From a virus: 64,000 nucleotides of DNA. Shown here piece after piece: positions 3,710 through 62,929 of this stretch (positions are counted from its first letter, which is position 1; each line of letters begins with the position of its first letter). The notes under the pieces were generated by a model, which saw only the letters and a program-made list of their open reading frames with translations, was not told the origin of the DNA and ran no database searches. A program made the translations under genes and the position numbers. The stretch is from positions 32,001 to 96,000 of IMG/VR virus record IMGVR_UViG_3300008255_000111; one strand, 5' to 3'.

Positions 3710-3735
3710 AATGACTGCAATCGATTGCAGTCATT
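3710..3735. repeat. CTGCAATCGATTGCAG palindrome (core 3715-3730), extended to 26 bp
   Basis: AATGA-core-TCATT. Confidence 0.95.
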
Positions 3736-3750
3736 GTCTCGACTTGAAGA

Positions 3751-4095
3751 TCAGCCGTGCTTGATAGGCTTGTCCGGGTTCGTGTAGGAGGTGATCTGCA
3801 CCAGCGCCTTGAAGTAGGGCTGCGATGTCGGCATAAACACCGCCAAATTAGCGATGCTCAGCATGTTAGTCGCCCAAGCGAGCATCACATCACGCCCTGG
3901 GGTATCGCCAATCTTGACGTAGGGCGGCGAGAGGTAAAAACCAGTCGCCTCGCAGTTGGCAGGCTTGGGTACTTTAAGGTAGGCGGCGTAAACCAACTGA
4001 CCTTCCAAATGGCCGCGATAGATGCCGACCAAGCATCCATCAAAGTCATGGGTTTCCAAATGATCAAAGCCTTCAAAGTGTTCAGTATGGGACAT
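3751..4095 (-). CDS. hypothetical protein
   Basis: ORF; ATG at 4095 has a GGAG SD. Confidence 0.7.
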   Translation of the reverse strand: MSHTEHFEGFDHLETHDFDGCLVGIYRGHLEGQLVYAAYLKVPKPANCEATGFYLSPPYVKIGDTPGRDVMLAWATNMLSIANLAVFMPTSQPYFKALVQITSYTNPDKPIKHG

Positions 4096-4264
4096 AAGGG
4101 CTCCATTGAATTGAGCGCAAGGCGACCTGACACAACGGGCATCCATTGTGTCGGGTAGGTCTGCGGGTTATGACGTGCTGCGAGGGTTAGCTCGCCTTAC
4201 AAAAACAACTTAGGGCATACATCCTGGCGGCGCCAATGGTTTTTGCGCTCCGTTGGTGCGCCTT

Positions 4265-4672
4265 TCAAGAAGGGTTCTCAAGCGCGTCCAGCTCATCAAA
4301 GGTGGCCAACAAGCTGCGCGCGATGTGCCAGCCCATGTAGTAGCTACCCTCGGTGGCGGCGTAGTCCATGCCGTCGAGATTCTTACCTGCCCCTGCCACA
4401 ACGATCACGCCGATCATGTAGCCCCACATATAGGGATCGGAGATGTCTGGAAGCCAACCCCTGAGCTTCGATTTGTCTTCAACGTCTTCATTGAGATATG
4501 CCTGGACAGGGCCTTGCTTGAAGCTGAAGCCGCTTCGCATCACCAATGGACGTGACACCATGTTACAATGCTTGCGCACGAAGATCATGCCTTCCTTGGC
4601 CTCAAAGCGTGGATGCTCCATGAGCAGCTTGGCGATCTCAGCATTCTGGTCGTGGTCATAGAAAGTGGACAT
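4265..4672 (-). CDS. hypothetical protein
   Basis: 135 aa ORF with GGAG SD. Confidence 0.75.
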   Translation of the reverse strand: MSTFYDHDQNAEIAKLLMEHPRFEAKEGMIFVRKHCNMVSRPLVMRSGFSFKQGPVQAYLNEDVEDKSKLRGWLPDISDPYMWGYMIGVIVVAGAGKNLDGMDYAATEGSYYMGWHIARSLLATFDELDALENPS

Positions 4673-4733
4673 AAAGGCTCCAGTGAGACTGGCGCGATTC
4701 TTCGCGCCATAGAGTGAGAGGGGAAGGCCCGGC

Positions 4734-5657
4734 TTAAGCCAACATGCCTTGGGGTGGATCTAGGCTTTTCTGCTCCAGGCGTGCGAGGTGTTTCTGCGTG
4801 GCAATGGCCCTGACTTCTGGTTCTGCGTTCTCAGCGCCGTAGAGCCGATGCACGCATTCTTCTACATTCCTGAAGTCTTCCATGATGATTTTTCCACGAT
4901 ACAGCACCTCGCGAGGGTGCCCGTTTTCTTGGCGGTTCAGGTTGGTCCTGAAGTACGTCGGGTCATTAATGCACTGGTAGAGATCGTCAAGACAATCAAA
5001 GCAGTGGTCCATGCTCGTCTTATAGGTGAGCAGCGGCAGCAGCGGCCAGCCTTTCGCCACAAGCGGGAGCCGGACAAAGTAAGGCGTCATCATCACGTCA
5101 TACGAGCGCTTGGAGCGGCTCATCGATTGCGTGAACGTATAATAGGTAGGACGGGGAGGCGCCTTGCTCTCGACGAGCGCCCTATTCATCATGATCAGAT
5201 CCTGAATCAAAGGCTCAGGATGGCGACGATCGCGAATCATCCACGCGAGGCAGCCATCGCCCCGACCTGGGAGCCCGCTGGCAAACATCTGGCCAAAGAG
5301 CGCCTTGTGCTCGTAGACCATGCTAAAGCTCATGGTGGAGTTGGGCATGTCGATGTAAGTGACTTTGCGATTGACCTTGGCCTTGATCACAAGGCCAAAG
5401 GTCGGCTTAAGGATCATCTGAAAGAGGTAGACTTTAGGCACCTTGGGCAGCATGAGCCCGCTCTTTTTGTCGAGCCATTCAGAGATCCTGGGGATGTAGG
5501 GCTTGACGTAGGCCCGCGCTGACTCAAAGTCAACGCCAAGCGCCTCCTGATCGTGGAGGTCGATCCCATAGAGTTCTAGGCTTGGTTTGTTACAGAAGGC
5601 GCGCAGATCACCGAACGTAAAGCGGCGACCTTCAACGGGCAGTTGAGGGATGGGCAT
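4734..5657 (-). CDS. FGxxRS-motif protein
   Basis: ..RRFTFGDLRAFCN..; SD CAGGAG. Confidence 0.85.
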   Translation of the reverse strand: MPIPQLPVEGRRFTFGDLRAFCNKPSLELYGIDLHDQEALGVDFESARAYVKPYIPRISEWLDKKSGLMLPKVPKVYLFQMILKPTFGLVIKAKVNRKVTYIDMPNSTMSFSMVYEHKALFGQMFASGLPGRGDGCLAWMIRDRRHPEPLIQDLIMMNRALVESKAPPRPTYYTFTQSMSRSKRSYDVMMTPYFVRLPLVAKGWPLLPLLTYKTSMDHCFDCLDDLYQCINDPTYFRTNLNRQENGHPREVLYRGKIIMEDFRNVEECVHRLYGAENAEPEVRAIATQKHLARLEQKSLDPPQGMLA

Positions 5658-5705
5658 GACTTGCTCCTGCGGGAAAGTCGGGTTTGGGATGACGAGAAGT
5701 TCGGG

Positions 5706-5731
5706 CTTAGCTGCAATCTATTGCAGCTAAG
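5706..5731. repeat. palindrome variant CTGCAATCTATTGCAG (core 5711-5726)
   Basis: CTTAG-core-CTAAG; mismatch lies in the central 4 nt. Confidence 0.9.
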
Positions 5732-5807
5732 TCGACTAGAAGGTTAAAGAGCGCCCAGCTCACGCTCGATCTCAGCCAAGGTCGAAGCTTTCCATGCTTA
5801 CAAGACA

Positions 5808-5835
5808 ACTATGAAGCGCACTAACCAAGCGTCAA
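5808..5835 (-). promoter_or_regulatory. promoter family, TTGACG-N16-CATAGT
   Basis: TTAGT at spacer positions 6-10. Confidence 0.65.
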
Positions 5836-5838
5836 ACC

Positions 5839-6771
5839 TTAAGTGCTGCTCGATGGTGCTTTATCAAAATAAGAGGCGATCAGCTCTTTGACCTCAAGGA
5901 TATACCGCTCAAGATCGGCCTCATCACTCGAAGGCTTTAAGAGCCGGGGGAGGCATTCACCTGTCACCACGTCGATCACCCAGACATACTCGGGGTGATA
6001 GGAGTCGAAGAACAGGCGGTCGCAGACCAGCCATCCGTTGCGCCCATGATAGTCATAGGGATCGTTGCTGAGCATGACCACAGGCAGCGCACTATCATGG
6101 GGCCGCGCCAAGTTGACAGCGCTCGCGATCGTCATCCTGTTTGGCTTCTTCAGCTTCGGATGGACAGGCATCTTCGAGTAGTCAAAGCCATGATCCATCT
6201 TCTTGATGTAGCAAGGCAGGGGCTCTAAGACCCCTTTAGCTCTGCGCACGTCAAGCACGAACCAGCCGTTATTATGCAAGATCAAGCGCGTCGCAGCGTA
6301 GAACAGGCGCTTCTGCCCTTCTGCGCTCATGATGAGCCACTGCTTCTTTGCCTCGGTGAGCCCGCCAAGCACCTTGAGCTTGCGCGTGCGCGGCGTCACT
6401 GGCGCATAGGTGTCAACTCCCAGCACATAGTCAAAGAAGTCCCTATGCGCCTCGGTGTTAGGTACGACGCCTGAACAGAAGACATCCACGAAGCGCTCGG
6501 TCAGCGGCAGCACGTCACCTGGGCGACCGTATCGAAGGAACACTCCCATGCTCGAATCTCTAGCGGGCAGCTCGACCCTGAACTCAGTCAGCTTGAGCAG
6601 ATCCGCTTCGATGCGATCTCCCTGGCGCTCAATCGGCTCAGGAGGCTCGCTTGGGTTCATCCCCATTGAGACTAGGTAATGCGAGAGCAGCTTGTCTGAG
6701 CGCCCTTCTAAGATGTAGCTGAGCGCAGTTGTGATCCGCTGCGCGTTGTAGATGTTCTTATCCTTCTTCAA
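5839..6771 (-). CDS. hypothetical protein
   Basis: 310 aa ORF in a coupled run. Confidence 0.8.
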   Translation of the reverse strand: MKKDKNIYNAQRITTALSYILEGRSDKLLSHYLVSMGMNPSEPPEPIERQGDRIEADLLKLTEFRVELPARDSSMGVFLRYGRPGDVLPLTERFVDVFCSGVVPNTEAHRDFFDYVLGVDTYAPVTPRTRKLKVLGGLTEAKKQWLIMSAEGQKRLFYAATRLILHNNGWFVLDVRRAKGVLEPLPCYIKKMDHGFDYSKMPVHPKLKKPNRMTIASAVNLARPHDSALPVVMLSNDPYDYHGRNGWLVCDRLFFDSYHPEYVWVIDVVTGECLPRLLKPSSDEADLERYILEVKELIASYFDKAPSSST

Positions 6772-7138: not shown

Positions 7139-7139
7139 C

Positions 7140-8288: not shown

Positions 8289-8375
8289 TTGGAAGCGACT
8301 TGTTTGGTTTGGCAGCGGGCTAGCTGCTCATGTTTAGACTTTAACGCTCCTCCAACTGATGAAAAGCAAAAAAGC

Positions 8376-11563: not shown

Positions 11564-11591
11564 GTAGAGCTGCAATCGATTGCAGCTCTAC
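11564..11591. repeat. palindrome (core 11570-11585), extended to 28 bp
   Basis: GTAGAG-core-CTCTAC. Confidence 0.95.
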
Positions 11592-14947: not shown

Positions 14948-14963
14948 CTGCAATCGATTGCAG
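14948..14963. repeat. CTGCAATCGATTGCAG palindrome
   Basis: Perfect core, 24 bp upstream of the 14924 start. Confidence 0.95.
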
Positions 14964-17887: not shown

Positions 17888-17913
17888 GTGAGCTGCAATC
17901 GATTGCAGCTCAC
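17888..17913. repeat. palindrome (core 17893-17908), extended to 26 bp
   Basis: GTGAG-core-CTCAC. Confidence 0.95.
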
Positions 17914-21846: not shown

Positions 21847-21862
21847 CTGCAATCGATTGCAG
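21847..21862. repeat. CTGCAATCGATTGCAG palindrome
   Basis: Perfect core directly next to the SD of 21832. Confidence 0.95.
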
Positions 21863-28304: not shown

Positions 28305-28320
28305 CTGCAATCGATTGCAG
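28305..28320. repeat. CTGCAATCGATTGCAG palindrome
   Basis: Perfect core, 15 bp upstream of the helicase ATG. Confidence 0.95.
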
Positions 28321-30728: not shown

Positions 30729-30744
30729 CTGCAATCGATTGCAG
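30729..30744. repeat. CTGCAATCGATTGCAG palindrome
   Basis: Perfect core next to the SD of 30716. Confidence 0.95.
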
Positions 30745-35153: not shown

Positions 35154-35169
35154 CTGCAATCGATTGCAG
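35154..35169. repeat. CTGCAATCGATTGCAG palindrome
   Basis: Lies between the promoter at 35192-35219 and ATG 35123. Confidence 0.95.
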
Positions 35170-36219: not shown

Positions 36220-36251
36220 ACAGGCTACTGCAATCGATTGCAGTAGCCTGT
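36220..36251. repeat. palindrome (core 36228-36243), extended to 32 bp
   Basis: ACAGGCTA-core-TAGCCTGT. Confidence 0.95.
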
Positions 36252-37544: not shown

Positions 37545-40500
37545 CTACCCGCAACCAGTTGTGCTCCCGCACTGCGTGCAGACTTGGCAGGCCCCTGACT
37601 GGACAAGCTGACCGCCACAGCTCAGGCAGAGCGCACCAAGGTACTCATCAGTGCGCTTGGCCTCAGTCAAGTAGATCGGCTTTGGTGCTGGCGTGGGCTC
37701 GTTTTGGTCAACAGCTCCCGTAGATTCTGCGAGTTGACCAAATCGAAGGTCCATCCAGCGCACAACATAGTCCATGAGCGACGATGCAAACCTCACATCC
37801 GGGTTGGACGTGTAGCCGCTCGGCTCATATTTGGTGTGCTTGAACTTGTCCACGATGACCTGAAGCGGCACCCCATACTGAAGGCAGATCGAGATGAGCG
37901 TGGCCGCTGCGTCCAGAAGGCCGTTGATGGTGCTCCCCTGCTTGCTTGAGGTGATGAACACCTCGCCGGGCGAACCATCAGGGTAGAGGCCAACCGTGAT
38001 GTAGCCCTCATGCCCACCGATCGAGAACTTGTGCGTCTTTGAGTCGCGCTCGTCAGAGAGGCGGCGGCGCACGCCATTAGACACTGCTGCAATCGATTGC
38101 AGCTGGTCGATAGAGGCTTGGGCTTGGGCTTGGGCGTCATCTTCGCTCGTGCCATTTGAAGCTGTGAGCGGCTGGCTTCCTTTGGAGTTGTCGCGGTAGA
38201 TCGCGACCGCCTTGAGCCCTTTACGCCAAGCGTCGATGTAAATATCAAATATCTCCTCGGGCGTAATGTCCTCGGGAGCGTTGACTGTCTTAGAGATCGC
38301 ACCACTGATCGCGGGTTGAGCAGCGGCCATCGCGTTGACGTGTGCCTGCCAGGGGAGCGCGTCGGCGCCAAAGGACACGTCAAAGACGGGAAGGTCGGCA
38401 GACCTGATCCCTGTGCCCTTCACATCGTCGCCGTAAATGCCATCGTAGACAAAGCTCTTAAGGTTGCCATGCTCTAGGATGTGCTCCACCGCGTGATCGA
38501 TCACGAACTGGTCATACCCTAGAGCCTTAAGAGCGCGCGGCACCGCTTGGTTGATGATGCTTATCTTGCCACCACCCACAAGCGTCTTGCTCTTGATGAG
38601 TGACAGCTCAGGCTCGATCCCTGTGGTGTCGCAGTCCATGATGAACGAGATTGTGTTGTGAGACACAAACCCGTCCGCGACATAGGTGTTTCGGGTCGGC
38701 ACAGAGAGGTCATAGGTCGGACGCAATCCGATGCAGTCGTTACTCTGCACCTCAACAAACTCAAGGTTGCCTAGCTCAAGAAGCTGCCCGATCTTGCTCG
38801 ACTTGAGTTGAGGGTGTTGACCAATAACGTCTCGCAACCAACCCACGTTGACGCTGCCTTGCGTCTTGCGCGCGGCGATGTTTTGACGAACATCATTCGG
38901 AAGGCCCACAGAAGACTCATACAGGTCGTCAATGAGCGCTTGTGACCGCAGCGTATGGCCACGCCATTCACAAGCCATATCAGCGCCCAAGCCTTGACTC
39001 AGGACGGCCCGCTTGCGCGTGGAGAGGAAGCCGACCTTTGACGCAAACACTTTCACATCTCCAAACGAAGCGCACGACACCCTGTACTTTGGCCGATCGC
39101 CAAAGCTATCAACCCTGGGGGGCGTCACACCGATCGTCGTCCTGATGCCTAGAGCCATGAGCGCTGCACTTACTTGCTTGGCAAGTTGGCTGCTGGTCGT
39201 GCTCAAGGACACCGTAGGCGAGTTGTTGCGCTGGAGATGGACCGTTCCATCTGCCTCGAACAAACCTGCCAAGAACGCTCCAAGGACGCGACTGTTGGAG
39301 CGAAGAACCTGCGTGGGGATGCGCGCCGAAGCTGCGCCCTCACCGTGATTGCCGACACTCTTGTCTAGGTCGTTAGCCTTCATCCATCGGTACAGCCTTC
39401 GGCTGTTATAGTGGGCGATGACGCAACCTTGGCGCTCCTCGATCGCTGCGCCTCGATCTAACGTGCTGCCAAAGAGCCCAACCAAGTCGGTGTCCTGCTC
39501 ATTGATCACCATGTGAAGGCCACCCTTCTCTTTGAGGTAGCCATCACCAACATAGTAGCCGAGCAACGCAGCAAAGCGCTCATCAAGGTGATCAGGGATG
39601 TAGATGTCCTTCTCGTTACTGTGCGCAGGATCATCCACGCGGACAAACTTAACGAGCGGGGCGGACCCCAAGACATCCTCGTGGCCACCGATGTTGCGAA
39701 CAACGATGTCACCGGGGCAGATGTCTTCCATTCGACGCCAGACATATTCCCCAGCCTCATTGATCACTCGGAGCTGGTGCTTCCAAGTCGCCTGAATCTC
39801 ATGACCACGAGTCGTCACGAGCTGGAAGGTACGATCCTCACCGTTGACATAGAACTTGGTTGCAGGCTGCGTGCCAGACTCTTGCGACACTTGAACGTCA
39901 AGATGCTGCCACTGCTCACCATCAACGTCCCCAAGCTCATCAATCGGAAGCAAGCCCGCTGAGGTTAACAGCATGGTTTCAGCGACCACACAACCTGTTG
40001 GCGCCAAGACCGTCGCCTGAGCGTTGCGCAGCCCATAGTCGCTGACGCCATCTAAGGCGCGCTGCCAGTCTGCTTCGATGGAGGAAATGCAAGTGTCGAT
40101 AAACGACCTCACGCGATCTGGCAGCGCATCTGGAGCATCATCTTTAAGCTGCCAGTATTTGATGTGCTCGGTGTCCATGTCGGGTTGACGGGCATAGCAC
40201 ATGCCATGCCTGAACAGGTCATAGTGGCGCTTGATCAGATCCGTCATCCCAACCTTATTAGAATGATCAAAGGCGGGGAACGGCCCAAGCACCTCAGCAA
40301 GATCCGCACTGGCGGCGTAAGCGGCTGCCGTCATGGTGTGGCTCAGGAGGTTGATCATTACCTCAGCCGCGTGGCTGTAATAGGGAATGCCCATGCACAT
40401 CAGCATAGCGCCAAGGTTCGTGAAGCCAAGGCCGACTGTGCGATATTCTTTGGTCTTCTTGGCAATATCCTCGGTCGGGTATTCGCTGAAGTCCAGCAGG

Positions 40501-42827: not shown

Positions 42828-42843
42828 CTGCAATCGATTGCAG
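42828..42843. repeat. CTGCAATCGATTGCAG palindrome
   Basis: Perfect core, 55 bp upstream of the nrdJ ATG. Confidence 0.95.
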
Positions 42844-43795: not shown

Positions 43796-46774
43796 TTAGA
43801 CCTTCTTGATCGCGCCACCAATCTCAAGCGACGCGGAGCTATCTGTGTAGCCTGTGCCACCTCCGTTTTGGATGATCAGGTTGTTGATCAGTCCGTTGCC
43901 CGCCGCCGCCTCAAAGACGATCGCTTGATCGTTACTGCCACCGTTGACGCTGAGGTTAGCCACCAGCGCTCGCGCGCCCGTTGCCGTCAAGAGGCGGGCA
44001 GACACCGTGTCAGCCGTCACGAGCCGCCCACCGTTGACCACGCAGTCTGCGCCTGCAACAACAACGTTGCTCCCGCCAGCCGTGAGGGCCGCCGTGTAAA
44101 CCTGCACGTTGTTTAAGCAGACGTTATCGCTCTCGATGAGCACACCTGCCGCGCAGTCCGCAGAGTCCACGAACACTTGCAGGTTACTGACGTTGAGCCC
44201 GCTACCTAATGGTGAGTTATTATTGAGCTTCACTGGCGTGACGCTTGAGACAGTCGCGATGGCGCCGGGGTAGCGCGCCTCGACGTTGACGATAGAGCCG
44301 CCCAAGCCAGACGCGTTAAGCAGCGTCTCGTAGTGCGTGCCGTTCGCTGCCAAGAACACAAGGTTGCTCAGTTGGCCACCAAGCGAAGGCGCATCTGCCT
44401 CAAGCGGGCAGTCGAGAAAGCGACACCCATCGACCAAGAGGCGCGCGGCGTTAAGGAACACGCCGTTGTTTCCACCAAGCGCGGTGACGTTGCGGCAATC
44501 AAAGGTGCATCCCCTAAAGAGGATGGACCCTGTGTTGCTCCCCCCAAGCGCTAAGAATGCCGTGCCCGGCCCGCTCCCGGTCCCGACCTCAAAGTGACAG
44601 TCCTCGAAGATCACCTCTTGGTTGGCATCCAAGGTCGATGAGTCCACGATCTTGTCCCCATAGAGACGACACCTTCTCAGCGTAAGGGGAAGCCCTGATG
44701 CGTTGGAGGGGATGCGCAAGGCTTCATCCCAGACCGCTGTACTTGGCGTGCCCGAGTAGTAGAGGTCCACGTCTTCGATCAGGATGTTGGCGCCATCTGC
44801 GTTAATCAGCTCGCCCGCTCCAAAGATGCCAGACCCGGAGTACCTGAAGCTCAGGTTGCGCAGAACTGAGTTGTCATTGAGCTTGATCTTGGTGCCAGAG
44901 AAGCCGTCCACAAGCACAGTCACCAAGCTGCCATCTCCCTCGATGATCACGTTGCGCGTCAACGTACCTGATGCCACGTCGGAGGCGGCGAGCGTAAAGC
45001 CCTGCATGATCTTGATCGTGGCGCGCGGCTGCACCAGAGATGGGTTAGAGCTTGTCGTGAGCGCCACATAAAGCAACGCCTGAGACAGCGACGTGAAGTG
45101 AGGCTGTTGGTTCGGGTGGTTGGGCGTCAGTGATGGACCAACAAGGATCTCGGGTGCAATCGATTGCAGCGGCGTCCCGAAGGTTCGCAAGTCAACAATC
45201 GAGATGATGGTGCCCACAGACACCTCGACATAAAACAGCGGGATGCGATCAGCGGTGGTGGTGTACGCCCCAAACGTTGAGAACGACTTAACCCCTGCCG
45301 TCGTCACATAGACCACATAGAAGTCATCGACCGCTGGAAGCACCACAGAGCCCGCAGTCACTACAACGTTGTCGTCGTACTCGGTGGCGCCCGATTCACG
45401 CCTCAGAAGCCCCTGAGTGAGCGAGAGCGTCCTCGGAGCGACAAATGTGGGCTCAAGGCCGCTCAAGAGCTGACGGCCAAGCAGCGGGCTCGTGGCGCCG
45501 TAGAGCGCAGAGCCCCTCACGGCATCCCTGATGAGCGAGTCCTCAATCGTCTTGCCGTAACCTGCCTCGGTCAGCGTCGCCAGCAAGGAGCCTGCATAGC
45601 TGCGCGGATCACCAAAGCCGGGAAGCTCCACGAAGGTGTTGTGATCCATGAAGCCTAAGCGCCCGTCGTTTGTCCCCACAAGCGAGATGCGCGCGTCAGT
45701 GTAGCTCAACTCAGTATCACCAGCGATCAGCTCAACAGCCCTAAGCGGCGCTTGGGCCGCAAGCCCTGAGAAGGCCGTCCCGTCTGGTCTGGTGATGTAG
45801 ACCTCGCAGTTGTCGATCACATACTGGCCCGAACCACCGGGCGGGTTGAAGGCGAAGACCGACAGGGTGAAAAGCTCAGCATCGGTGCTCACAGCGGGCA
45901 CCTCGATCATAAAGCCGTAGCTCTCGAAGCCCGCGACCGAGCCCCCCTCAAGGTACGTCTGCGAGAACAAGATCCCCTCAGAGCCCGCTGCCCATTCCGA
46001 GAGCCTGACGTTGAGGTTAGTCGTCGCGCTCAGCACGCCTTGAGTCTTAATCCTAAAGCGCACGAACAAGAGATCGTTCTCCCTGACATCGAAGATGCTC
46101 ACCCTCAGCGCGCTGGTTGTCGGAGGGCCGACTGCCACAGAAGACCCAAGGATGGCGCTATAATCATCACCATCGCCAGCAGTCGTGTCGAGCTGGTAGA
46201 CGCCGCCTTGTTGGATGTCCCAGCCCGCAAAGCCAGCGCGGAAGCTGCTGTTAGGGGCAAGCGACTGCCAGCCCTGAAGGCCGTTCCTGAAGACCCCTGC
46301 CCATTGTGCTGTGGCGTGGTCACAGTGCTCGTTTGTGATGGCGCCCACAGAAGGCACTCGGACGCTTCCGAGCGAGATCGCGGAGTTGATCCAGAGCGCG
46401 CCAAGCTCGGCTGCGTCCACAACCCTATATTCTGCGCTGGTGGCCCCAGCCGTCGTATAGTTCACATAGATGAAGAAATAGACGCGCGTGCCTGCGAAGG
46501 CGGCCAAGTCAAACGAGGGCTCAGCAGTCTCAAGAATCGTCAGCGCAAGTCGGTTCACCTCGTCAGGCACGAAGGCGAGCGAGTCATTGAAGACCGCAGA
46601 CCTCGCCAACTTCACCACTGCGCCAGCGACAGGCACAAGCCTAAACCCTCGGGCCAAGCCCATGCGACCGCTGACGAACAAGCCTCTATTTAGCGACTCG
46701 GAGGTGTACGTCTCCTCGAAGCGAGTCCTGATCTTAGACGGCGTGATCACTGCCGTGGGCGCTAGAATGGTCAT
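43796..46774 (-). CDS. tail fibre / receptor-binding protein with C-terminal beta-helix
   Basis: 992 aa; CBM-like central domain; pectate-lyase-like repeats; position after the baseplate genes. Confidence 0.75.
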   Translation of the reverse strand: MTILAPTAVITPSKIRTRFEETYTSESLNRGLFVSGRMGLARGFRLVPVAGAVVKLARSAVFNDSLAFVPDEVNRLALTILETAEPSFDLAAFAGTRVYFFIYVNYTTAGATSAEYRVVDAAELGALWINSAISLGSVRVPSVGAITNEHCDHATAQWAGVFRNGLQGWQSLAPNSSFRAGFAGWDIQQGGVYQLDTTAGDGDDYSAILGSSVAVGPPTTSALRVSIFDVRENDLLFVRFRIKTQGVLSATTNLNVRLSEWAAGSEGILFSQTYLEGGSVAGFESYGFMIEVPAVSTDAELFTLSVFAFNPPGGSGQYVIDNCEVYITRPDGTAFSGLAAQAPLRAVELIAGDTELSYTDARISLVGTNDGRLGFMDHNTFVELPGFGDPRSYAGSLLATLTEAGYGKTIEDSLIRDAVRGSALYGATSPLLGRQLLSGLEPTFVAPRTLSLTQGLLRRESGATEYDDNVVVTAGSVVLPAVDDFYVVYVTTAGVKSFSTFGAYTTTADRIPLFYVEVSVGTIISIVDLRTFGTPLQSIAPEILVGPSLTPNHPNQQPHFTSLSQALLYVALTTSSNPSLVQPRATIKIMQGFTLAASDVASGTLTRNVIIEGDGSLVTVLVDGFSGTKIKLNDNSVLRNLSFRYSGSGIFGAGELINADGANILIEDVDLYYSGTPSTAVWDEALRIPSNASGLPLTLRRCRLYGDKIVDSSTLDANQEVIFEDCHFEVGTGSGPGTAFLALGGSNTGSILFRGCTFDCRNVTALGGNNGVFLNAARLLVDGCRFLDCPLEADAPSLGGQLSNLVFLAANGTHYETLLNASGLGGSIVNVEARYPGAIATVSSVTPVKLNNNSPLGSGLNVSNLQVFVDSADCAAGVLIESDNVCLNNVQVYTAALTAGGSNVVVAGADCVVNGGRLVTADTVSARLLTATGARALVANLSVNGGSNDQAIVFEAAAGNGLINNLIIQNGGGTGYTDSSASLEIGGAIKKV
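45154..45169. repeat. palindrome variant GTGCAATCGATTGCAG in frame (LQSIA)
   Basis: 15/16 match, in the linker DLRTFGTPLQSIAPE. Confidence 0.85.
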
Positions 46775-50386: not shown

Positions 50387-52614
50387 TAGATCGCCTCCCT
50401 AGAGCCGTTAGGCAGTCTTCTGAAAAAATTGAAGGTTGGGCGATGAACGATCTCTCGCTCATCCACAGACAAGTTGCCCTCGCTGTCGATGAACGACTTA
50501 AGAAAGGCGGCACCTGTAAAGCCTGTGATCGTGATATTAACGCGCTCAAGCTCAAGAGACTCCAGCTCTTTATAAAGCTCGTCTAGATCGAGGTCACTGC
50601 CAAATGTCTTGCCCTTGATCAGCGCCTCAATCCTCGACTGGATGTCTGATTTGATCTTGAGCGGCTTGTCTCCTGGGATCTCCTGAAAGACCACGGTGAG
50701 CGTGGGAGCGACGAAGTAACCATCTCCAGATAGGACGCGAAACACCACGGAAGGCTCCTTGCGCGCATCAAGATACGCCTCAAGCGACTTCACAAGACCG
50801 TTGGGGGCCGCAGCATAGTAACCATCACTGTCGCGCGTCAAAATGGGCACCGTGATCAGGTTGGGGCCACACACGTCAGCGAAGACTCCATCAAGATGCT
50901 GCTCAAGCTCGGTGAGCTTATCAAGAGCGCCATTGTACGGGTTCACGAGGCGCTGCTGAAGGTCGTCAACCTCGTCATTGAAGCCGGACACCAACGGACC
51001 AACAAGCGCAAGAGCCGCGATCTCGTCCACAAGATCCGCCTGGGCGGTGGTTCGGCTCTGCGTCGCCGCATCAATCTGCGTCTCTTGCGATGACACCAGC
51101 GATCGTATCGTGGCCGTGCTCGCGATCACGCTACCCAACGAGTTGCTAACTGCCCCCGATGGTGATGTGACCTTTGAGACTTGCTCAGTGGCGCTGTCAG
51201 CCTGATCCAACAAGGCGATCAGTGAGCTGTACGTCGCTGGCGCGATCGTGCCGCCTGAGCCCACACCTACGATGGCCGACCTGATGCTGCTGAGCTGTGA
51301 CTGAATCTGCGAGACGCTGTTGTCTGCTGTCGATACGCTTGTCTGGACAAAAGATGCCTCAGTAGAGAGGCCGTTTGACGCATCCCTAAGATCCACCACG
51401 TCGGAGTCGATCTGAGTGAGCGCTACATCTAGGGGAGAGCCCGCGTCAAGATCATCTGCAATCGATTGCAGCGCTGCTCCAGTCGCAGTCAGCCGGGCTT
51501 GAATGTCAGTAGCAAGCGCAGCGATGGCCGTGTCGCTCAAAGCAATCTCAGCGAGCGCATCCACGATGAGGCCGCGAAGTTGCGTGATGATGCTCAAGCT
51601 CACCATGTCGTTATCGATCGAGGTCGCCAAAACAGCGCGCGCTGCCTCGACCGCCCCAAAGACAGGATCTCGATAGACGCCAACCAAGCCGTCAAAGTCA
51701 CTCTTGACCACAACTGCGCCGTCGCTGTGCTTGGCGAGTGGGAGGCGCGCTTTTGTGATCACTGCCGTTTCTGGCGCCTTGCCGCCCCTCATGTCCGACG
51801 ATTCTACCGTAAGAGGCAGCGGCGTCCCTAGCACGAGCAGATCGTCTGCCGCCCCTGTGATCTCACCTGCCGGAATGATGCCTTGCTCAGCTCGGGTAAC
51901 TGCAAACTTCACAGCGATCGAAGCCCCATCAGGAGGGATGAGCCCAACGGCCCCGTCTCCAAACTCGATGTAGGGCGTGCTCGGCGTATAGGCGACTCGA
52001 TAGACCGTCGTGTCTGTGTCAAGGAACGCGTCGCGCTCGGTCCACGTCACACCATCGATCACAACCTCAAGCGATCGATATGCCAGGAACTCACCTACCG
52101 CCAAGCTGCCAAGGTTGAAGACCTGAAAAGGGGAGCCATCCGATCCAAAGGTCAGGTTCCTCGTCTCGCGCTGAGAGACATCGATCACCTGGGAAGCCGT
52201 TGAGCCCAGGGGGAACGTATAAGACTGCACAGCCTCATAGCGAAGGCCTTGCGGCCCAAGGAAGCCAAAGCCATTCGGCATGATCGCCGTTGAGACGGGG
52301 GCGGCCTGGGGTGTCACCACGAGCTGACCAGACGAAGGCACTGCACCTGCTGGGTTATAGGCGCGGGCCGCCGCATAGCGATCTAGCGCCTCTCGGCTTT
52401 GGATCGTGGGCAGGTAGACATCGTTGGCCTGCAAGTCCTGAAAGAAGTTGACCAGCTCGGCCACATAGGACGCCTGATCCAAGAGCAGCGAGGTCAGATC
52501 ATTGGTGAAGTCAAACGTCACACCCTTGGGCTCGTAGACCGCGCGCAGCTTGGATTTAACCTGCTGCACCAGGGTGTCAAAATCCTTACCCGCATAGAGT
52601 CGTTTAGTGGCCAT
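50386..52614 (-). CDS. baseplate J / gp6-like wedge protein with a long helical insertion
   Basis: KDFDTL..; IEFGDG..G.IPP.G; GG.APE..; AVVVKSDF. Confidence 0.85.
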   Translation of the reverse strand: MATKRLYAGKDFDTLVQQVKSKLRAVYEPKGVTFDFTNDLTSLLLDQASYVAELVNFFQDLQANDVYLPTIQSREALDRYAAARAYNPAGAVPSSGQLVVTPQAAPVSTAIMPNGFGFLGPQGLRYEAVQSYTFPLGSTASQVIDVSQRETRNLTFGSDGSPFQVFNLGSLAVGEFLAYRSLEVVIDGVTWTERDAFLDTDTTVYRVAYTPSTPYIEFGDGAVGLIPPDGASIAVKFAVTRAEQGIIPAGEITGAADDLLVLGTPLPLTVESSDMRGGKAPETAVITKARLPLAKHSDGAVVVKSDFDGLVGVYRDPVFGAVEAARAVLATSIDNDMVSLSIITQLRGLIVDALAEIALSDTAIAALATDIQARLTATGAALQSIADDLDAGSPLDVALTQIDSDVVDLRDASNGLSTEASFVQTSVSTADNSVSQIQSQLSSIRSAIVGVGSGGTIAPATYSSLIALLDQADSATEQVSKVTSPSGAVSNSLGSVIASTATIRSLVSSQETQIDAATQSRTTAQADLVDEIAALALVGPLVSGFNDEVDDLQQRLVNPYNGALDKLTELEQHLDGVFADVCGPNLITVPILTRDSDGYYAAAPNGLVKSLEAYLDARKEPSVVFRVLSGDGYFVAPTLTVVFQEIPGDKPLKIKSDIQSRIEALIKGKTFGSDLDLDELYKELESLELERVNITITGFTGAAFLKSFIDSEGNLSVDEREIVHRPTFNFFRRLPNGSREAI
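51456..51471. repeat. palindrome in frame (LQSIA) in the helical insertion of baseplate J
   Basis: Perfect core. Confidence 0.95.
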
Positions 52615-53002: not shown

Positions 53003-53022
53003 AGCTGCAATCGATTGCAGCT
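53003..53022. repeat. palindrome (core 53005-53020) filling the gap between the spike stop and the gp25 SD
   Basis: AG-core-CT. Confidence 0.95.
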
Positions 53023-59911: not shown

Positions 59912-60939
59912 ACTTCCAAGTCGGTAGGGTAAAAAAAAGCGGGGTCTTGCGGGTGAAGCAAGAACTCAAGGTTGGCGCCACACGAGTTGCACGACAGGTA
60001 AACGTTGTGATCGAAGTAGGGCTCATAGGAGGTGAACTCCTTGAAGATGAGAAGCCTCACCGCCTCGGGGAGCGTCAGCAGCTTGTCGATACTGTCGAGC
60101 TTAGACAAGACCAGCGCTCCGTCGTCTGTTTGCCCTCCCGTGTGGCGGCGGCCCAGATAGACCGTCTCGACCTCATCGTCTTTGTTGAGCTTAGGGAAGG
60201 TGATATTATCGATCCTGGCGACGCACGCTGATGTCACAATATCAAGGCTGCGCTCGTTTGGATCTGCGACATCTTGGCGGTTGGCCACTTCTTTCCTTCG
60301 GTGACGCTTGCGGTCCACAGCGGCGGCCTTCGTGCGACTTTCCTCCCTCAACTGCTTGTCCACGTCAAAGAGGTACTTGGCGTCGTGCTGAGTCATCATG
60401 TGCCAAGTGACTTCCCAGACATAGCCGTGAACGTTGATGCTGGAGGTGATCGGCTCAAAGTGGTCCACGTCTAGCCCCTCGACGCCCATCTCCTCCATGT
60501 TCGCCGTGTAGCGCGCGTCGTGGCCACACTTCTCACATTCAATCCTGAACGTGTATTTGCTGCCCAAGCTCATCTGACGCAGCTTAAACAGCAGATAGGT
60601 GTAGTCCGCCAAGAGGATGCGCCCTTTAAGGATCTCTAGGATCTCGTGCCTGCTCGTATAGTTTCCAAAGGCGGCGATCGACTCTAGCAGGAGCCGATCG
60701 AGCGCCACGTCGCCAGCGATCTTGCCCGATGTAGCATCTGACAGGACCATATCACCCTTACCTGTGATGCCTTTAAGGAGCACAGTCGGCAGGCGCTCGC
60801 CCTTATAGAGCGGCCCACCAAAAGGAAGCTCCACCGTTGCAAGGAAGTCTTTGCCGTCAAACTTAATCTCAGGCAGCTCACCGAGCGTCTTGGTGGCGTG
60901 CATCTCCAGCTTTTCGAGAACGTCTTTTTTATCACTCAT
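59908..60939 (-). CDS. tail assembly chaperone / baseplate hub assembly protein
   Basis: VELP..; DYTYLLFKLR..SLG; two CxxCG motifs; ends AFFYP; start MSDKK at 60939. Confidence 0.8.
   Translation of the reverse strand: MSDKKDVLEKLEMHATKTLGELPEIKFDGKDFLATVELPFGGPLYKGERLPTVLLKGITGKGDMVLSDATSGKIAGDVALDRLLLESIAAFGNYTSRHEILEILKGRILLADYTYLLFKLRQMSLGSKYTFRIECEKCGHDARYTANMEEMGVEGLDVDHFEPITSSINVHGYVWEVTWHMMTQHDAKYLFDVDKQLREESRTKAAAVDRKRHRRKEVANRQDVADPNERSLDIVTSACVARIDNITFPKLNKDDEVETVYLGRRHTGGQTDDGALVLSKLDSIDKLLTLPEAVRLLIFKEFTSYEPYFDHNVYLSCNSCGANLEFLLHPQDPAFFYPTDLEV
59931..59938 (-). other. slippery sequence T TTT TTT for a programmed -1 frameshift
   Basis: GCT TTT TTT TAC; the -1 frame reads FFLPYRLGSVSRVGPD into 59606..59911. 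Confidence 0.8.
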
Positions 60940-60957
60940 GGGAAACCTCGGGAAAGC

Positions 60958-60977
60958 GACTGCAATCGATTGCAGTC
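60958..60977. repeat. palindrome (core 60960-60975)
   Basis: GA-core-TC, 21 bp upstream of the chaperone ATG. Confidence 0.95.
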
Positions 60978-61139
60978 CAACGTGGGGAGCTTTCAAGCTC
61001 GTAAATGGTGACTTCACCTTGGGCGGCCCGCTCACACACCTTGAGCCAAAGCTCGATCGCGGCGTCGCGCGTGCCTGCCTTGTGGTGAATAAAGCAACGA
61101 CCACCCTCCTGCCAGAACACCTGGAAGCCTAAAGGCGTC

Positions 61140-61880
61140 TCACCTGTGGCGATCATTCTTCTCATGAGTCCCATCCAACACAGCTAACCTTGACTTGGCA
61201 ACACTAATGGCCTCAGCCGATATATCATTAACAATGAAGCGACGGCCATGTCGAGCTGCACATACTGCTGTGGTGCCGCTGCCGACGAACGGGTCAATGA
61301 CCATATCGCCTGCGTTGGTGCTGTTGAGCAAAAGCGTGCTCACAAGCTCCTCCGGCTTCTGTGTGGGATAGCCCTTGTGAATCGGAGGCACCAAGAGCAC
61401 GTCAGGCACAGACAAATCATTGAGGCGCCGCTTGTCCCTCTTTCCAGGCTTAGGGCCGCGCCCGAACATCAGGATGTTCTCGCTGGTGCGGCGGTAGTGA
61501 TAGCCCATACCCATCTTGAGCTTGCCCGGCTCTTTCGCTGCCTTCACCCATGTCAGGCTGTTCCAGAACCAGAAGCCCGCTGCCACAGCCATCGGATGTG
61601 CGACAAAGGCTGTCTCATCATCACAGAAAAAATAGAAGTGCGTGTTCGGCTTCATGACGCGGTAAATCTCGCTCATGAGCGAGGGGATGTTTTCGTTTTT
61701 AAAGACCTGAAACCAGTCGTTACTACTTGCGTCGCTATGACTAAGGCGCGTGGTCGTCCCAACGCTTCGGTGCTTCTCTAGTGACTCGTAAGCAATATCT
61801 GTGATCACGCAGTCAGCGACCCCTGACTCAAGGCCCGACAAAAACTCAATGGCGTCCTTCGTCGCAAAGGTGCGATCCAT
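61140..61880 (-). CDS. beta-class N4/N6 DNA methyltransferase with atypical DIAY motif
   Basis: ITDIAY, YPTQKP, IDPFVGSGTT; start moved to 61880. Confidence 0.88.
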   Translation of the reverse strand: MDRTFATKDAIEFLSGLESGVADCVITDIAYESLEKHRSVGTTTRLSHSDASSNDWFQVFKNENIPSLMSEIYRVMKPNTHFYFFCDDETAFVAHPMAVAAGFWFWNSLTWVKAAKEPGKLKMGMGYHYRRTSENILMFGRGPKPGKRDKRRLNDLSVPDVLLVPPIHKGYPTQKPEELVSTLLLNSTNAGDMVIDPFVGSGTTAVCAARHGRRFIVNDISAEAISVAKSRLAVLDGTHEKNDRHR

Positions 61881-62045
61881 TAGACCCTCGTTCGCTGAGG
61901 TTTGATATGACAAGAACCGAGACAGGCCGTGATGTGAAATCACGGCCTGTCCCTGCAACCCATAAGGAAAGACACCCGCAGCCATTTCCTTATATGTTGA
62001 AGATGACGACGCGCCCTTGTTCGCGCCGCCGTCCTCACCATTAAG

Positions 62046-62234
62046 CTACCCAACAGGAAAGAGGGGCACAACCCATATTTTACCAAGGGCCGTTTTATTT
62101 TGGTCTTTCACCTTCTCCAAGTCCTCACTGTTCCAGACCGTGCTCAGCCCTGGACTTGCAACCAACAACGGGGTGTTGGCCGTCGTCGTGGTGACACTCT
62201 CCTCTTGCTCTTGCTTGTGTTCATCTGAGCGCAT
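62046..62234 (-). CDS. small hypothetical protein
   Basis: Start overlaps the end of tube 2; GAGG SD. Confidence 0.5.
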   Translation of the reverse strand: MRSDEHKQEQEESVTTTTANTPLLVASPGLSTVWNSEDLEKVKDQNKTALGKIWVVPLFPVG

Positions 62235-62883
62235 TCCTCACCTCTCTAAGTCTAAGCGGCGTCCCCAGCACAAACTCGCTAAAGCTGGAGATGCTGATGT
62301 CCAGCTCCGCCACGCTGATCTCCTCGCCACTTCCATCGAAGTCCTGAGCTGCTTTATAGCGCGTCGGCACGCAGCCCTTCAAGAGCCAGACACGAGCCGA
62401 CCAGTCCAGCGCTGAGGCAGCGAGGCCCGTCGCCGCTGAGATCACTGGACGGTCGCGCTGGTTGCTCGCAAGCGCTGACACAAGAAGGCTTGAGACGATG
62501 CCTATCTTCTCGATGTCGCTTTTCCTACTGTCGATCTGACCGTGGATCTGGATGAGCGCCAAGTCGCGACGATAGATGCCTCGACCATGCTGAGCTTTTC
62601 TGATCCACTGGTAGAACTCATCGTCGCCTGTGAGCACCCCTCGTTGAAGCGTCAGCGCATCGACCTTGCCACGCTTAATCACATCGATCGAGTAAGGCAA
62701 GTTGCCCGGCCTAACCTCCTGCGTCTCAAGCGAGATCGATGGTGCTGTGATCGACTTGAAGCCGATCTGCGGCGTCAGCGCCAGAAAAGGCACGTTGAGG
62801 TTGCTAAAGCCGCCTGTGCGCGTCACGTCAAGCAAGTGGAAGTTGAAGCTGTTGAAGTAGTCTTCTGATGTCGTGCGCGCCAT
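62221..62883 (-). CDS. tail tube protein 2 (T4 gp19-like)
   Basis: FNFH..GFKSI..LTLQRGV..FYQW..RRDL..W.L..C.PTRYK..EL. Confidence 0.85.
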   Translation of the reverse strand: MARTTSEDYFNSFNFHLLDVTRTGGFSNLNVPFLALTPQIGFKSITAPSISLETQEVRPGNLPYSIDVIKRGKVDALTLQRGVLTGDDEFYQWIRKAQHGRGIYRRDLALIQIHGQIDSRKSDIEKIGIVSSLLVSALASNQRDRPVISAATGLAASALDWSARVWLLKGCVPTRYKAAQDFDGSGEEISVAELDISISSFSEFVLGTPLRLREVRNALR

Positions 62884-62901
62884 AGTCTCACCTTCAAATG
62901 A

Positions 62902-62929
62902 TAAGGGCTGCAATCGCTTGCAGCCCTTA
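62902..62929. repeat. palindrome variant CTGCAATCGCTTGCAG (core 62908-62923), extended to 28 bp
   Basis: TAAGGG-core-CCCTTA, between the two tube genes. Confidence 0.9.

What the first reader, a model, noticed from the sequence alone, without database searches (positions are those of the whole stretch)
3710..62929. Window-wide 16-bp palindrome CTGCAATCGATTGCAG (17 copies): an unexplained cis-element system
Seen: perfect copies start at 3715, 11570, 14948, 17893, 21847, 28305, 30729, 35154, 36228, 38087, 42828, 51456, 53005 and 60960; one-mismatch copies start at 5711, 45154 and 62908. Chance expectation for a given 16-mer in 64 kb is about 1.5e-5 with uniform bases. Gaps are 1.1-8.0 kb and copies span accessory, replication and virion genes alike. 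Fourteen are intergenic, about 13-55 bp upstream of a minus-strand start codon, several next to the SD. At 5711 and 35154 they lie downstream of a predicted promoter, so they should be transcribed. Established analogues: mycobacteriophage stoperators and start-associated sequences, and bacterial parS, Noc and SlmA sites. I do not recognise this sequence as any of them. Inference: binding sites for a dimeric protein acting genome-wide (global repressor, genome organisation/partition, or protection), or RNA-processing hairpins.
Basis: partly seen in the sequence, partly recalled or inferred. Interest (0 to 1): 0.92.

Follow-up and report, generated by a model that had tools for sequence, protein, structure and literature searches.

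The report
Genome-wide palindromic operator of a phage clade
The 16-base palindrome is real and is this phage's version of a short DNA docking site (GCAAT-NN-ATTGC) that a large, deeply diverged group of phages, including cultured Vibrio, Stenotrophomonas and Rhodobacter phages, scatters evenly along their genomes, most likely for a phage-made ParB/KorB-like DNA-binding protein that controls the whole genome.

Summary
Observation confirmed: 14 perfect and 3 one-mismatch copies in the window (0.02 expected), and 29 in the 105-kb virus record.

The element is not private to this phage. The core GCAAT-NN-ATTGC recurs 8-57 times per genome in at least 12 relatives that share only 25-40% protein identity and span 38-61% GC. 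These include cultured Vibrio phage V-YDF132, Stenotrophomonas phage DLP5 (temperate phagemid) and Rhodobacter phage RcZahn. I found no paper describing it.

Sites are enriched between genes, but many lie deep inside genes, often near the middle of long ones and mostly in the frame LQSIA. Spacing is far more even than chance in every genome (CV about 0.5 against 0.95).

The best candidate is a conserved DUF3102-like protein whose modelled fold resembles the ParB/KorB DNA-binding domain. Its gene is preceded by a site in 8-10 of 11 genomes. In V-YDF132 many sites lie 8-9 bp upstream of a -35 box.

The copy-specific hairpin arms occur only in this lineage. They look like a secondary co-option, and three copies are terminators. 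A primary RNA-hairpin role is disfavoured.

The scan had already noted this palindrome in other windows of this genome, and similar repeats in other phages. All function is inferred.

The parts
3715..3730 (.). Perfect 16-mer, intergenic, with 5-bp copy-specific arms. It lies 20 nt after a stop and 43 nt before the start of gene 2427-3671(-).
5711..5726 (.). One-mismatch copy (central position), intergenic, with 5-bp arms, 53 nt before the start of 4734-5657(-). A weak sigma-70-like match lies at 5835-5808 upstream.
11570..11585 (.). Perfect copy, intergenic, with 6-bp arms, 22 nt before the start of 11224-11547(-).
14948..14963 (.). Perfect copy, intergenic, no arms, 23 nt before the start of 14574-14924(-).
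17893..17908 (.). Perfect copy, intergenic, with 5-bp arms, 15 nt after a stop and 37 nt before the start of 17379-17855(-).
21847..21862 (.). Perfect copy, intergenic, no arms. The SD abuts the site, which is 14 nt before the start of 21071-21832(-).
28305..28320 (.). Perfect copy, intergenic, 14 nt before the start of the Dda-like helicase gene 26974-28290(-).
30729..30744 (.). Perfect copy, intergenic, 12 nt before the start of 30453-30716(-).
35154..35169 (.). Perfect copy, intergenic, 30 nt before the start of 34044-35123(-). It begins 22 nt downstream of a weak sigma-70-like match (35219-35192).
36228..36243 (.). Perfect copy, intergenic, with 8-bp arms (32-bp perfect palindrome; RNA fold -23.9 kcal/mol), 39 nt before the start of 35241-36188(-).
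38087..38102 (.). Perfect copy inside the ribonucleotide reductase ORF 37545-42773(-), read as LQSIA.
42828..42843 (.). Perfect copy, intergenic, 54 nt before the start of the ribonucleotide reductase gene.
45154..45169 (.). One-mismatch copy (outermost base) near the middle of the 992-aa gene 43796-46774(-), in frame LQSIA.
51456..51471 (.). Perfect copy at the midpoint (1144/1071 nt) of the baseplate wedge gene 50386-52614(-), in frame LQSIA.
53005..53020 (.). Perfect copy, intergenic. It directly abuts the stop of 53021-53917(-) and is 16 nt before the start of 52626-52988(-).
60960..60975 (.). Perfect copy, intergenic, 20 nt before the start of 59908-60939(-).
62908..62923 (.). One-mismatch copy (near-central position), intergenic, with 6-bp arms, 9 nt after a stop and 24 nt before the start of 62221-62883(-).

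Best explanation
The palindrome is a double-stranded DNA docking site. Its clade-wide core is GCAAT-NN-ATTGC, and this lineage uses the strict 16-mer. It is read by a dimer of a phage-encoded DNA-binding protein. The most likely reader is a conserved DUF3102-like protein whose modelled central domain resembles the ParB/KorB/Noc DNA-binding domain. Its gene lies between the replication and packaging modules. That part of the genome is missing from this truncated contig but is present on fragment G004, which looks like the same or a sibling phage.

The protein occupies 20-55 evenly spaced sites along the one-directional genome and acts as a genome-wide regulator in the manner of KorB at its OB sites. 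It would sit next to promoters where they exist and at operon junctions or inside long genes elsewhere, and it would regulate its own gene.

In this lineage about a third of the sites have secondarily been built into longer hairpins. Three of these, outside the window, serve as intrinsic terminators.

Shown: the sites, their conservation, their spacing, their variants and the fold similarity.
For: 1) Real and clade-wide. There are 29 copies in G000. The same core occurs 8-57 times per genome in G001, G003, G004 and G006-G010 and 5 times in the G002 fragment. It also occurs in cultured V-YDF132 (25), DLP5 (28) and RcZahn (8). Shared proteins in these genomes are only 25-40% identical, and GC ranges from 38 to 61%.
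2) DNA-level signature. Many sites are truly intragenic: G007 33/47, G009 24/34, G010 28/54. They favour one reading frame (LQSIA) and sit near the midpoints of long genes. Spacing CV is 0.45-0.52 in most genomes (0.70 in G008) against about 0.95 for random or gene-start nulls. The p-value is at most 0.0006 in five genomes and below 0.04 in the other four. DLP5 gives 0.49 and V-YDF132 gives 0.57.
Lineages lacking the canonical site carry coherent two-half-site variants, for example GCAAC x9, GCAAA x11 and GCACT x5. Hosts span Vibrio, Stenotrophomonas and Rhodobacter.
4) Candidate reader. The A3/A5 family is present in 11 relatives that contain the replication module. A site lies within 160 nt upstream of its homology region in 8/11 genomes. 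G003 adds a variant site, and every other conserved gene has 5/7 or fewer. In 80 further loci encoding a relative there are 219 sites, against 0-6 for six control palindromes. In the AF2 model residues 116-231 have pLDDT above 90. They match the ParB DBD-parS complex 6s6h (Z 8.8, rmsd 2.5 A, 94 residues), Spo0J 1vz0 (Z 7.5) and KorB 8qa8/1r71 (Z 7.2/6.8). Foldseek's top hits are ParB and Noc.
5) Promoter coupling in a cultured relative. In V-YDF132, 15/34 sites have a TTGACA-like box 8-9 nt downstream, 11 of them with a -10 box; the antisense control gives 4 and 0. This includes the site before the candidate gene, and DLP5 and RcZahn show the same geometry there.
6) G004 is the likely missing part of this genome. 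Tetranucleotide r is 0.961, against at most 0.55 for other genomes and 0.931 for G000 split in halves. It has the same strict 16-mer and the same arms.
7) Precedent. KorB loads at palindromic OB sites and silences promoters more than 1 kb away (PMC11790492).
Against: There is no experiment of any kind. The candidate reader is not on this contig, so its link to G000 rests on composition and shared features with G004.

The fold match is to a small helical domain, and the tool itself warns that Z below about 13 can be a common arrangement. Raf1 scores as high as ParB. No Pfam model reaches threshold (DUF3102, E 0.004). No ParB N-terminal CTPase domain was detected in the candidate, so KorB-like sliding is not supported for it. 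The separate ParB_N protein is absent from the complete genomes G001 and G009.

Any clade-conserved gene would co-occur with a clade-conserved site, and a site retained upstream of one gene could be inheritance rather than autoregulation.

In G000 itself only 1/29 sites has a -35-like box downstream, so a direct promoter role is not visible here.

In G010 the site is asymmetric and oriented with transcription (sense TACAAT...). A simple symmetric dimer does not explain this.

Even spacing and mid-gene placement fit genome organisation at least as well as transcription control.
Confidence: 0.55

Rival explanations
1. The binding is the same (a phage-encoded dimer on dsDNA), but the purpose is physical rather than regulatory. 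The evenly spaced sites would organise, partition, compact or shield the whole phage or plasmid-prophage genome, like ParB-parS, Noc-NBS or the dispersed centromeres of phage-plasmid N15.
For: Spacing is much more even than chance in all genomes, and sites sit at the midpoints of long genes. Neither feature is needed to regulate promoters. The cultured relative DLP5 persists as a phagemid (PMC5834331, PMC7326821). Most relatives also encode a ParB_N protein next to the terminase.
Against: The complete genomes G001 and G009 keep the sites but have no ParB_N protein. Centromeres are usually clustered, not spread over the whole genome. The fixed 8-9 bp spacing to -35 boxes in V-YDF132 points to contact with RNA polymerase. 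No ParA-type partner was sought or found.
Confidence: 0.22
2. The element works mainly as a transcribed RNA hairpin at gene junctions, serving as a terminator, an RNase processing site or an mRNA stabiliser.
For: In G000, 9-12 of 28-29 copies have copy-specific perfect arms, against a chance rate of about 0.001 per site. With arms the fold is very stable at -23.9 kcal/mol. The copies at G000 6337, 12807 and 17375 are followed by T-runs on the coding strand and look like intrinsic terminators. Most copies lie between a stop codon and the next SD.
Against: Arms exist only in G000 and its probable other half G004, and in 0 of about 200 sites in 11 other genomes. The bare 16-mer folds weakly at -5.1 kcal/mol, and the dominant sense-strand form in G010 does not fold at all (0 kcal/mol). 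The perfect arm runs contain no G-U pair. Where a run breaks, sense-strand G-U and A-C are about equally frequent. Many variants break pairing outright. Deep intragenic copies would be harmful if they terminated or were cleaved. There is no Rfam match. Independent terminators exist next to sites in G010 and elsewhere in the window.
Confidence: 0.12
3. The element is itself a promoter, or a -10-like core, for host RNA polymerase redirected by a phage factor, as in T4 late promoters. It would start a transcript just before each SD.
For: In G010 the sense-strand form is TACAATCGATTGCA (about 30 copies, plus TATAAT variants), oriented with transcription at about 30:7. In two places a separate terminator abuts the site, with the SD and ATG 12-13 nt after it. 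All genes lie on one strand. Sites sit at the heads of conserved gene blocks: before DnaC/DnaB, before the helicase, and before the DUF3102-like gene.
Against: In G000, G002 and G004 the site is a perfect palindrome with no asymmetric flank, so it would fire in both directions. TGCAAT lacks the key A at position 2 of a -10 box. Mid-gene copies make no sense as promoters. No T7-type polymerase or sigma-70 region 2 was found in six of seven genomes, but the polymerase search had no positive control. In V-YDF132 the site lies upstream of ordinary -35/-10 promoters rather than replacing them.
Confidence: 0.07
4. The repeat spreads by a mutational or recombinational drive, as proposed for DNA uptake sequences, or marks targets of a nuclease or nickase. 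It would have no regulatory reader.
For: Even spacing, a preferred reading frame inside genes and occasional use as terminator stems all resemble what is described for uptake sequences in Neisseria and Haemophilus (my own knowledge). Perfect arm extensions could arise by template switching at a palindrome.
Against: No drive mechanism is known for phages. Site positions are conserved at orthologous gene junctions across very deep divergence. Spacing to -35 boxes is fixed. A palindromic nick site would cut both strands.
Confidence: 0.04

Closest known systems
KorB and its OB operators on plasmid RK2 (PMC11790492; PDB 1r71, 8qa8)
   Same: A short palindrome is dispersed over a whole mobile genome. 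Some copies lie right beside promoters and others far from any. It is read by a dimer with a ParB-type DNA-binding domain, and the output is global control.
   Different: No ParB N-terminal CTPase domain was detected in the candidate, so clamp sliding is not supported. There are far more sites (20-55 against about a dozen, the latter from my own knowledge). The sites are evenly spaced and often inside genes. The element is in phages, not a conjugative plasmid. There is no sequence similarity between the sites.
17-bp dyad repeat TGTTCGGNNNCCGAACA of Cluster O mycobacteriophages (PMC4351075)
   Same: More than 30 copies per genome with invariant arms and a variable centre. The copies are a mix of intergenic, near-5'-end and intragenic. 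The repeat is conserved within a phage group, and its function and reader are unknown.
   Different: That repeat is confined to five closely related genomes. Here the core persists across genomes with 25-40% protein identity and hosts from different classes, and a candidate reader and promoter coupling can be named. Spacing regularity was not reported there.
Stoperators of Cluster A mycobacteriophages (L5 gp71); own knowledge
   Same: Two to three dozen repressor sites sit in short intergenic gaps across the genome. This would explain silencing of a prophage, and the cultured relative DLP5 is temperate.
   Different: Stoperators are asymmetric 13-mers bound by a monomer and strictly oriented with transcription. 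The G000 site is a perfect palindrome. No repressor or lysogeny module was identified in G000.
ParB-parS, Noc-NBS and the dispersed SopB centromeres of phage-plasmid N15; own knowledge plus PDB 6s6h, 6y93
   Same: 14-16-bp palindromes are read by ParB-fold HTH dimers. Noc sites are scattered over a chromosome, and N15 scatters its centromeres among phage genes.
   Different: Those proteins carry the CTPase domain and act in segregation or division control. N15 has four sites. No ParA partner or membrane-targeting helix was examined here.
RNase III processing sites of T7-group phages and intercistronic hairpins of T4; own knowledge
   Same: Both are repeated hairpin-capable elements between genes of a genome transcribed in one direction.
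   Different: Those act in RNA and vary in sequence while keeping their structure. Here the sequence is fixed, the structure is dispensable (G010), and copies lie inside genes.

Membership tests
Dispersed dyad-symmetric protein-binding repeats of phage/plasmid genomes (KorB-OB, Cluster O repeat type) | Many copies of one short palindrome, far above chance, spread over the whole genome | tested here: met
   17 copies in the window against 0.02 expected, and 29 in the record
Dispersed dyad-symmetric protein-binding repeats of phage/plasmid genomes (KorB-OB, Cluster O repeat type) | Arms invariant, centre variable, conserved in relatives | tested here: met
   The core GCAAT..ATTGC is kept while the centre varies (CG, CA, TG, TA) across 12 relatives
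Dispersed dyad-symmetric protein-binding repeats of phage/plasmid genomes (KorB-OB, Cluster O repeat type) | A sequence-specific protein binds the repeat | not testable with these tools
   Only a candidate is available (DUF3102-like protein with a fold resembling the ParB DNA-binding domain). EMSA or ChIP is needed.
ParB/KorB family (for the candidate reader) | HTH DNA-binding domain of the ParB type | tested here: inconclusive
   VIA Z 8.8 to 6s6h, 7.5 to 1vz0 and 7.2 to 8qa8. Foldseek probability is 0.9-0.99 but E is 0.05-0.5. The domain is helical and Raf1 scores equally.
ParB/KorB family (for the candidate reader) | N-terminal ParB_N CTPase domain | tested here: not met
   No PF02195 hit appeared among the 91 family members scanned at E up to 0.01. 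The PF02195 hits in these genomes fall on a different gene. The N-terminus of the G001 model looks like a winged helix.
Stoperators (Cluster A mycobacteriophages) | Asymmetric site, one orientation relative to transcription | tested here: not met
   The G000 sites are perfect palindromes with no asymmetric flank. Only G010 shows oriented asymmetry.
Stoperators (Cluster A mycobacteriophages) | Temperate phage with an identified repressor | not tested
   The relative DLP5 is temperate (PMC5834331). No repressor or integrase search was done for G000.
Intrinsic terminators | G+C-rich stem followed by a U-tract on the coding strand | tested here: not met
   None of the 17 window copies was listed among terminator-like sites in the stretches scanned (1-20000 and 34900-36500), and none shows a T-run after its arms. 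Three copies outside the window (G000 6337, 12807, 17375) do have one.
Known RNA families (Rfam 15) | Match at gathering score | tested here: not met
   0 matches in the window
Host genomic repeat (REP-like) | Similar density in a bacterial chromosome | tested here: not met
   Only scattered single copies in unrelated taxa, about the number expected by chance. The scan was truncated at 120 rows.

The most novel reading that the evidence does not exclude
A very large and old clade of tailed phages, 80-135 kb with all genes on one strand and hosts from Vibrio to Rhodobacter and beyond, keeps a genome-covering array of one palindrome at enforced, near-regular spacing. The spacing pressure is strong enough to write the site into protein-coding sequence (LQSIA) at the middle of long genes. 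The array would be read by a new CTPase-less branch of ParB-fold proteins that coats or organises the whole genome. This would be a chromosome-organisation system for phages rather than an ordinary operator set.
Probability: 0.22. Interest if true: 0.8.

Novelty: new variant of a known kind. Interest (0 to 1): 0.62.

Why it matters
Dispersed palindromes are repeatedly seen in phage genomes and are almost never explained. This one is unusually tractable. The same core is kept across phages that share barely a quarter of their protein residues. It occurs in at least three cultured phages, including the temperate phagemid DLP5 and a Vibrio phage in which it sits at a fixed distance from promoters. 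A single conserved candidate reader can be named and tested directly.

The even spacing and the mid-gene, frame-constrained copies show that a non-coding signal can shape coding sequence in phages. They also hint at a whole-genome function: silencing, maintenance of the plasmid-prophage, or organisation.

The lineage variants (GCAAC, GCAAA, GCACT) would give a natural specificity series.

Tried and rejected
- Close relatives of G000: none found. Megablast of 20 kb against cultured phages gave nothing. Two gene-based scans of viral contigs also gave nothing. Orthologous-hairpin covariation could therefore not be tested.
- Exact-string literature searches for six forms of the motif returned only primers and unrelated hits. 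The DLP3/DLP5 papers do not mention the repeat.
- Host repeat: rejected.
- ParB_N protein as the universal reader: rejected, because the complete genomes G001 and G009 lack it.
- T7-like RNA polymerase and sigma-70 region 2: not found in most genomes. The polymerase search had no positive control, so it is not informative.
- Pfam and PHROG on 30 G000 proteins: almost all blank.
- Extra conserved flanks such as -35 or UP elements around the sites: none in any genome's logo.
- LacI/PurR-type operator and LexA-box resemblances, recalled from memory: not pursued, because hosts are too diverse and lineage variants argue for a phage reader.
- G-U against A-C test on the arms: too few informative pairs.
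- Residue-to-site covariation in the candidate (W-S/T-K helix against position 5 of the half-site, read off): suggestive only, confounded by kinship, and not claimed.
- G005 proved identical to G001.

Full report
**1. Observation.** CTGCAATCGATTGCAG occurs 14 times perfectly and 3 times with one mismatch in the window, at exactly the coordinates given. Shuffles give a mean of 0.02. The window is bases 32001-96000 of a 104,952-bp IMG/VR virus record (G000, estimated 81% complete), which carries 29 copies. All but one of 118 called genes lie on the minus strand. Fourteen window copies are intergenic, with the 16-mer ending 12-54 nt before a start codon and 0-178 nt after the previous stop. Three are in frame inside long genes. 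A scan of 596 Gb of bacterial genomes found only scattered single copies in unrelated taxa, roughly the number I estimate for chance.

**2. The element belongs to a whole clade.** An exact-match scan of viral contigs found many records with several copies. Searching whole records showed the following:
- G001 (134 kb, complete): 23-25 sites.
- G003: 10-11 sites.
- G004: 10 sites.
- G006: about 15-21 sites, as CGCAAT..ATTGCG.
- G007: 47-57 sites.
- G008: 37-40 sites.
- G009: 34-43 sites.
- G010: about 50 sites.
- G002 (38% GC fragment): 5 sites.

G000 shows no nucleotide similarity to G001-G004. At the protein level, G000 matches only G001, with 16 proteins at about 30% identity. The others share a syntenic module at 25-40% identity. 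That module comprises a DnaC-like loader, a DnaB helicase, a primase, a gp32-like zinc SSB, a helicase, UvsX, a Cas4-like nuclease, a DUF3102-like protein and TerL.

A TerL search led to cultured phages with the same module. These also carry the core: Vibrio phage V-YDF132 has 25 GCAATTAATTGC, Stenotrophomonas phage DLP5 has 28 GCAATYRATTGC, and Rhodobacter phage RcZahn has 8. The invariant part is GCAAT-NN-ATTGC. The outer bases and the central dinucleotide vary by lineage. I found no description of this repeat in the literature.

**3. Where the sites lie.** Sites are strongly enriched in intergenic DNA: 25 of 29 in G000, where 15% of the genome is intergenic. Intergenic gaps in these genomes are tiny. 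A 16-mer placed in one must therefore end up between a stop and the next SD, so the position 'next to the SD' is largely a geometric consequence.

Many sites are truly intragenic in other genomes: G007 33/47, G009 24/34, G010 28/54. These favour the frame that reads LQSIA. In long genes they sit near the midpoint, for example 1144/1071 nt in the G000 baseplate wedge gene and 2221/2433 nt in a 4.7-kb G010 gene.

Spacing is far more even than chance in every genome. The CV is 0.45-0.52 in most genomes (0.70 in G008, 0.22 for the five sites of G002), against about 0.95 for uniform or gene-start nulls. The p-value is at most 0.0006 in G000, G001, G007, G009 and G010. DLP5 gives 0.49 and V-YDF132 gives 0.57. 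No additional conserved flank exists. Site positions are conserved at orthologous junctions of the replication module: before DnaC/DnaB, before the helicase, and before the DUF3102-like gene.

**4. DNA or RNA?** In G000, 9-12 copies have perfect, copy-specific arms extending the palindrome to 26-38 bp. The chance rate is about 0.001 per site. Three copies outside the window are followed by T-runs on the coding strand and look like terminators. The RNA hairpin is therefore real at some sites.

The arms occur only in G000 and G004, however. None of about 200 sites in eleven other genomes has them. The bare 16-mer folds weakly at -5.1 kcal/mol, against -23.9 kcal/mol with 8-bp arms. The dominant sense-strand form in G010, UACAAUCGAUUGCA, does not fold at all. 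The perfect arm runs contain no G-U pairs. Where a run breaks, sense-strand G-U and A-C are about equally frequent. Many variants break pairing outright. Mid-gene copies would be harmful if they terminated transcription or were cleaved. There is no Rfam match. I conclude that the conserved function is read in DNA, and that the G000/G004 lineage has secondarily built hairpins around some sites.

**5. Who reads it?** The hosts are diverse, and lineages without the canonical site carry coherent two-half-site variants. Examples are GCAAC x9, GCAAA x11, GCACT x5, GCAGT, GCAGA, GAAAT and GACAT.

The ParB_N protein beside the terminase is absent from the complete genomes G001 and G009. The best candidate is the conserved DUF3102-like protein, for four reasons:
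- **Distribution.** It is present in all 11 relatives that contain the module.
- **A site before its own gene.** A site lies within 160 nt upstream of its homology region in 8 of 11 genomes, with a variant site in G003. Every other conserved gene has 5/7 or fewer.
- **Wider association.** In 80 further viral loci encoding a relative there are 219 sites, against 0-6 for six control palindromes.
- **Fold.** The AF2 model was built from a 91-sequence alignment (mean pLDDT 75.5, above 90 for residues 116-231). Its central domain matches the ParB DBD-parS complex 6s6h (Z 8.8, rmsd 2.5 A, 94 residues), Spo0J (Z 7.5) and KorB (Z 7.2 and 6.8). Foldseek's top hits are ParB and Noc DNA-binding domains.

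These are moderate scores for a helical domain. Raf1 scores equally, and no Pfam model reaches threshold. No ParB CTPase domain is detected in this family. The family is large, with 6,242 cluster representatives at E up to 0.001.

**6. Link to transcription.** In V-YDF132, 15 of 34 sites have a TTGACA-like hexamer 8-9 nt downstream, 11 of them with a -10 box. The antisense control gives 4 and 0. The same geometry precedes the candidate gene in V-YDF132, DLP5 and RcZahn. This resembles what I recall of KorB operators that lie just upstream of -35 boxes (own knowledge). KorB also acts from sites more than 1 kb from promoters (PMC11790492). In G000 this geometry is absent (1/29). Two window sites lie downstream of weak sigma-70-like matches.

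**7. The missing part of this genome.** G000 ends, in the sense direction, just after the position where G001 has its major capsid gene, so it lacks the replication and packaging module. G004 is a 38-kb fragment that carries exactly that module and ends just after the capsid gene. It has the same GC content, the same strict 16-mer and the same arms. Its tetranucleotide profile correlates with G000 at r = 0.961, against at most 0.55 for all other genomes and 0.931 for G000 split in halves. G004 is very probably the same or a sibling phage. It encodes the DUF3102-like protein (18240-19085) and a ParB_N protein.

**8. Verdict.** The palindrome is real and strongly selected. It is the local form of a clade-wide DNA site. 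I put about 0.55 on a genome-wide regulatory operator read by a phage ParB/KorB-fold protein. I put about 0.22 on the same binding serving organisation or partition, about 0.12 on a primary RNA role, about 0.07 on a promoter, and about 0.04 on a drive or nuclease target.

Two things remain unexplained: the oriented asymmetry in G010, and the reason for even spacing.

The kind of element is known (KorB-OB; the Cluster O repeat, PMC4351075; stoperators). What is new is its breadth, its spacing rule, the coding-sequence imprint and a testable reader.

The scan had already flagged this palindrome in two other windows of this genome, and similar dispersed palindromes in other phages.

Noticed in passing
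window 37545-42887 (-): The 1,780-aa ORF is a ribonucleotide reductase large subunit interrupted by intein-like inserts, with PHROG hits to an endonuclease and Hint-type segments. The palindrome at 38087 lies in its C-terminal part.
   Followed up: partly
IMG/VR record G004 (L189-L190), whole 38,318 bp: Probably the missing replication/packaging part of the G000 phage or a sibling. Tetranucleotide r is 0.961, with the same GC, the same strict 16-mer and the same arm phenomenon. It ends just after the capsid gene, where G000 begins.
   Followed up: partly
G010 (L199-L203), about 50 sites: The site is asymmetric and oriented with transcription: sense TACAATCGATTGCA about 30 times against 7 reversed, plus TATAAT variants. 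Perfectly symmetric copies are mostly intragenic. This is unexplained. It could be a -10-like overlap or a changed half-site preference.
   Followed up: partly
G006 (L222-L228), 15 places, e.g. 57583 on the minus-strand listing: Fifteen copies of a strong sigma-70-type promoter, TTGAC(A/T)-N16-TATGCT, embedded in the conserved GATTATGCTGTA. This element is separate from the palindrome and is probably the early promoters.
   Followed up: no
window 3650-3690, 5660-5690, 17860-17885 (-): The leaders of three genes share CCCGCAGGAG just before the ATG, and two of the proteins begin MPIP. This looks like a paralogous gene family with a duplicated ribosome-binding region.
   Followed up: no
all genomes of the clade: Every genome examined (80-134 kb) has essentially all genes on one strand, which is unusual for phages of this size.
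   Followed up: partly
G000 15684-16934 (L229) and G010 75695-79174 (L202): G000 encodes a DNA polymerase III beta-like sliding clamp (sub-threshold Pfam hit). The G010 family-A DNA polymerase carries an intein.
   Followed up: no
G000 6387-11561 (L229), window 43796-46774 and 55691-59242: Three very large proteins (1,724, 992 and 1,183 aa) have no Pfam hit. The latter two also have no PHROG hit, and the 1,724-aa protein was not scanned against PHROGs. The 1,183-aa one is distantly similar to a 1,764-aa G001 protein in the tail region.
   Followed up: no
G000 442-470 (L001): Two overlapping copies of the palindrome, 13 bp apart, at the far end of the record. This is the only tandem pair.
   Followed up: no
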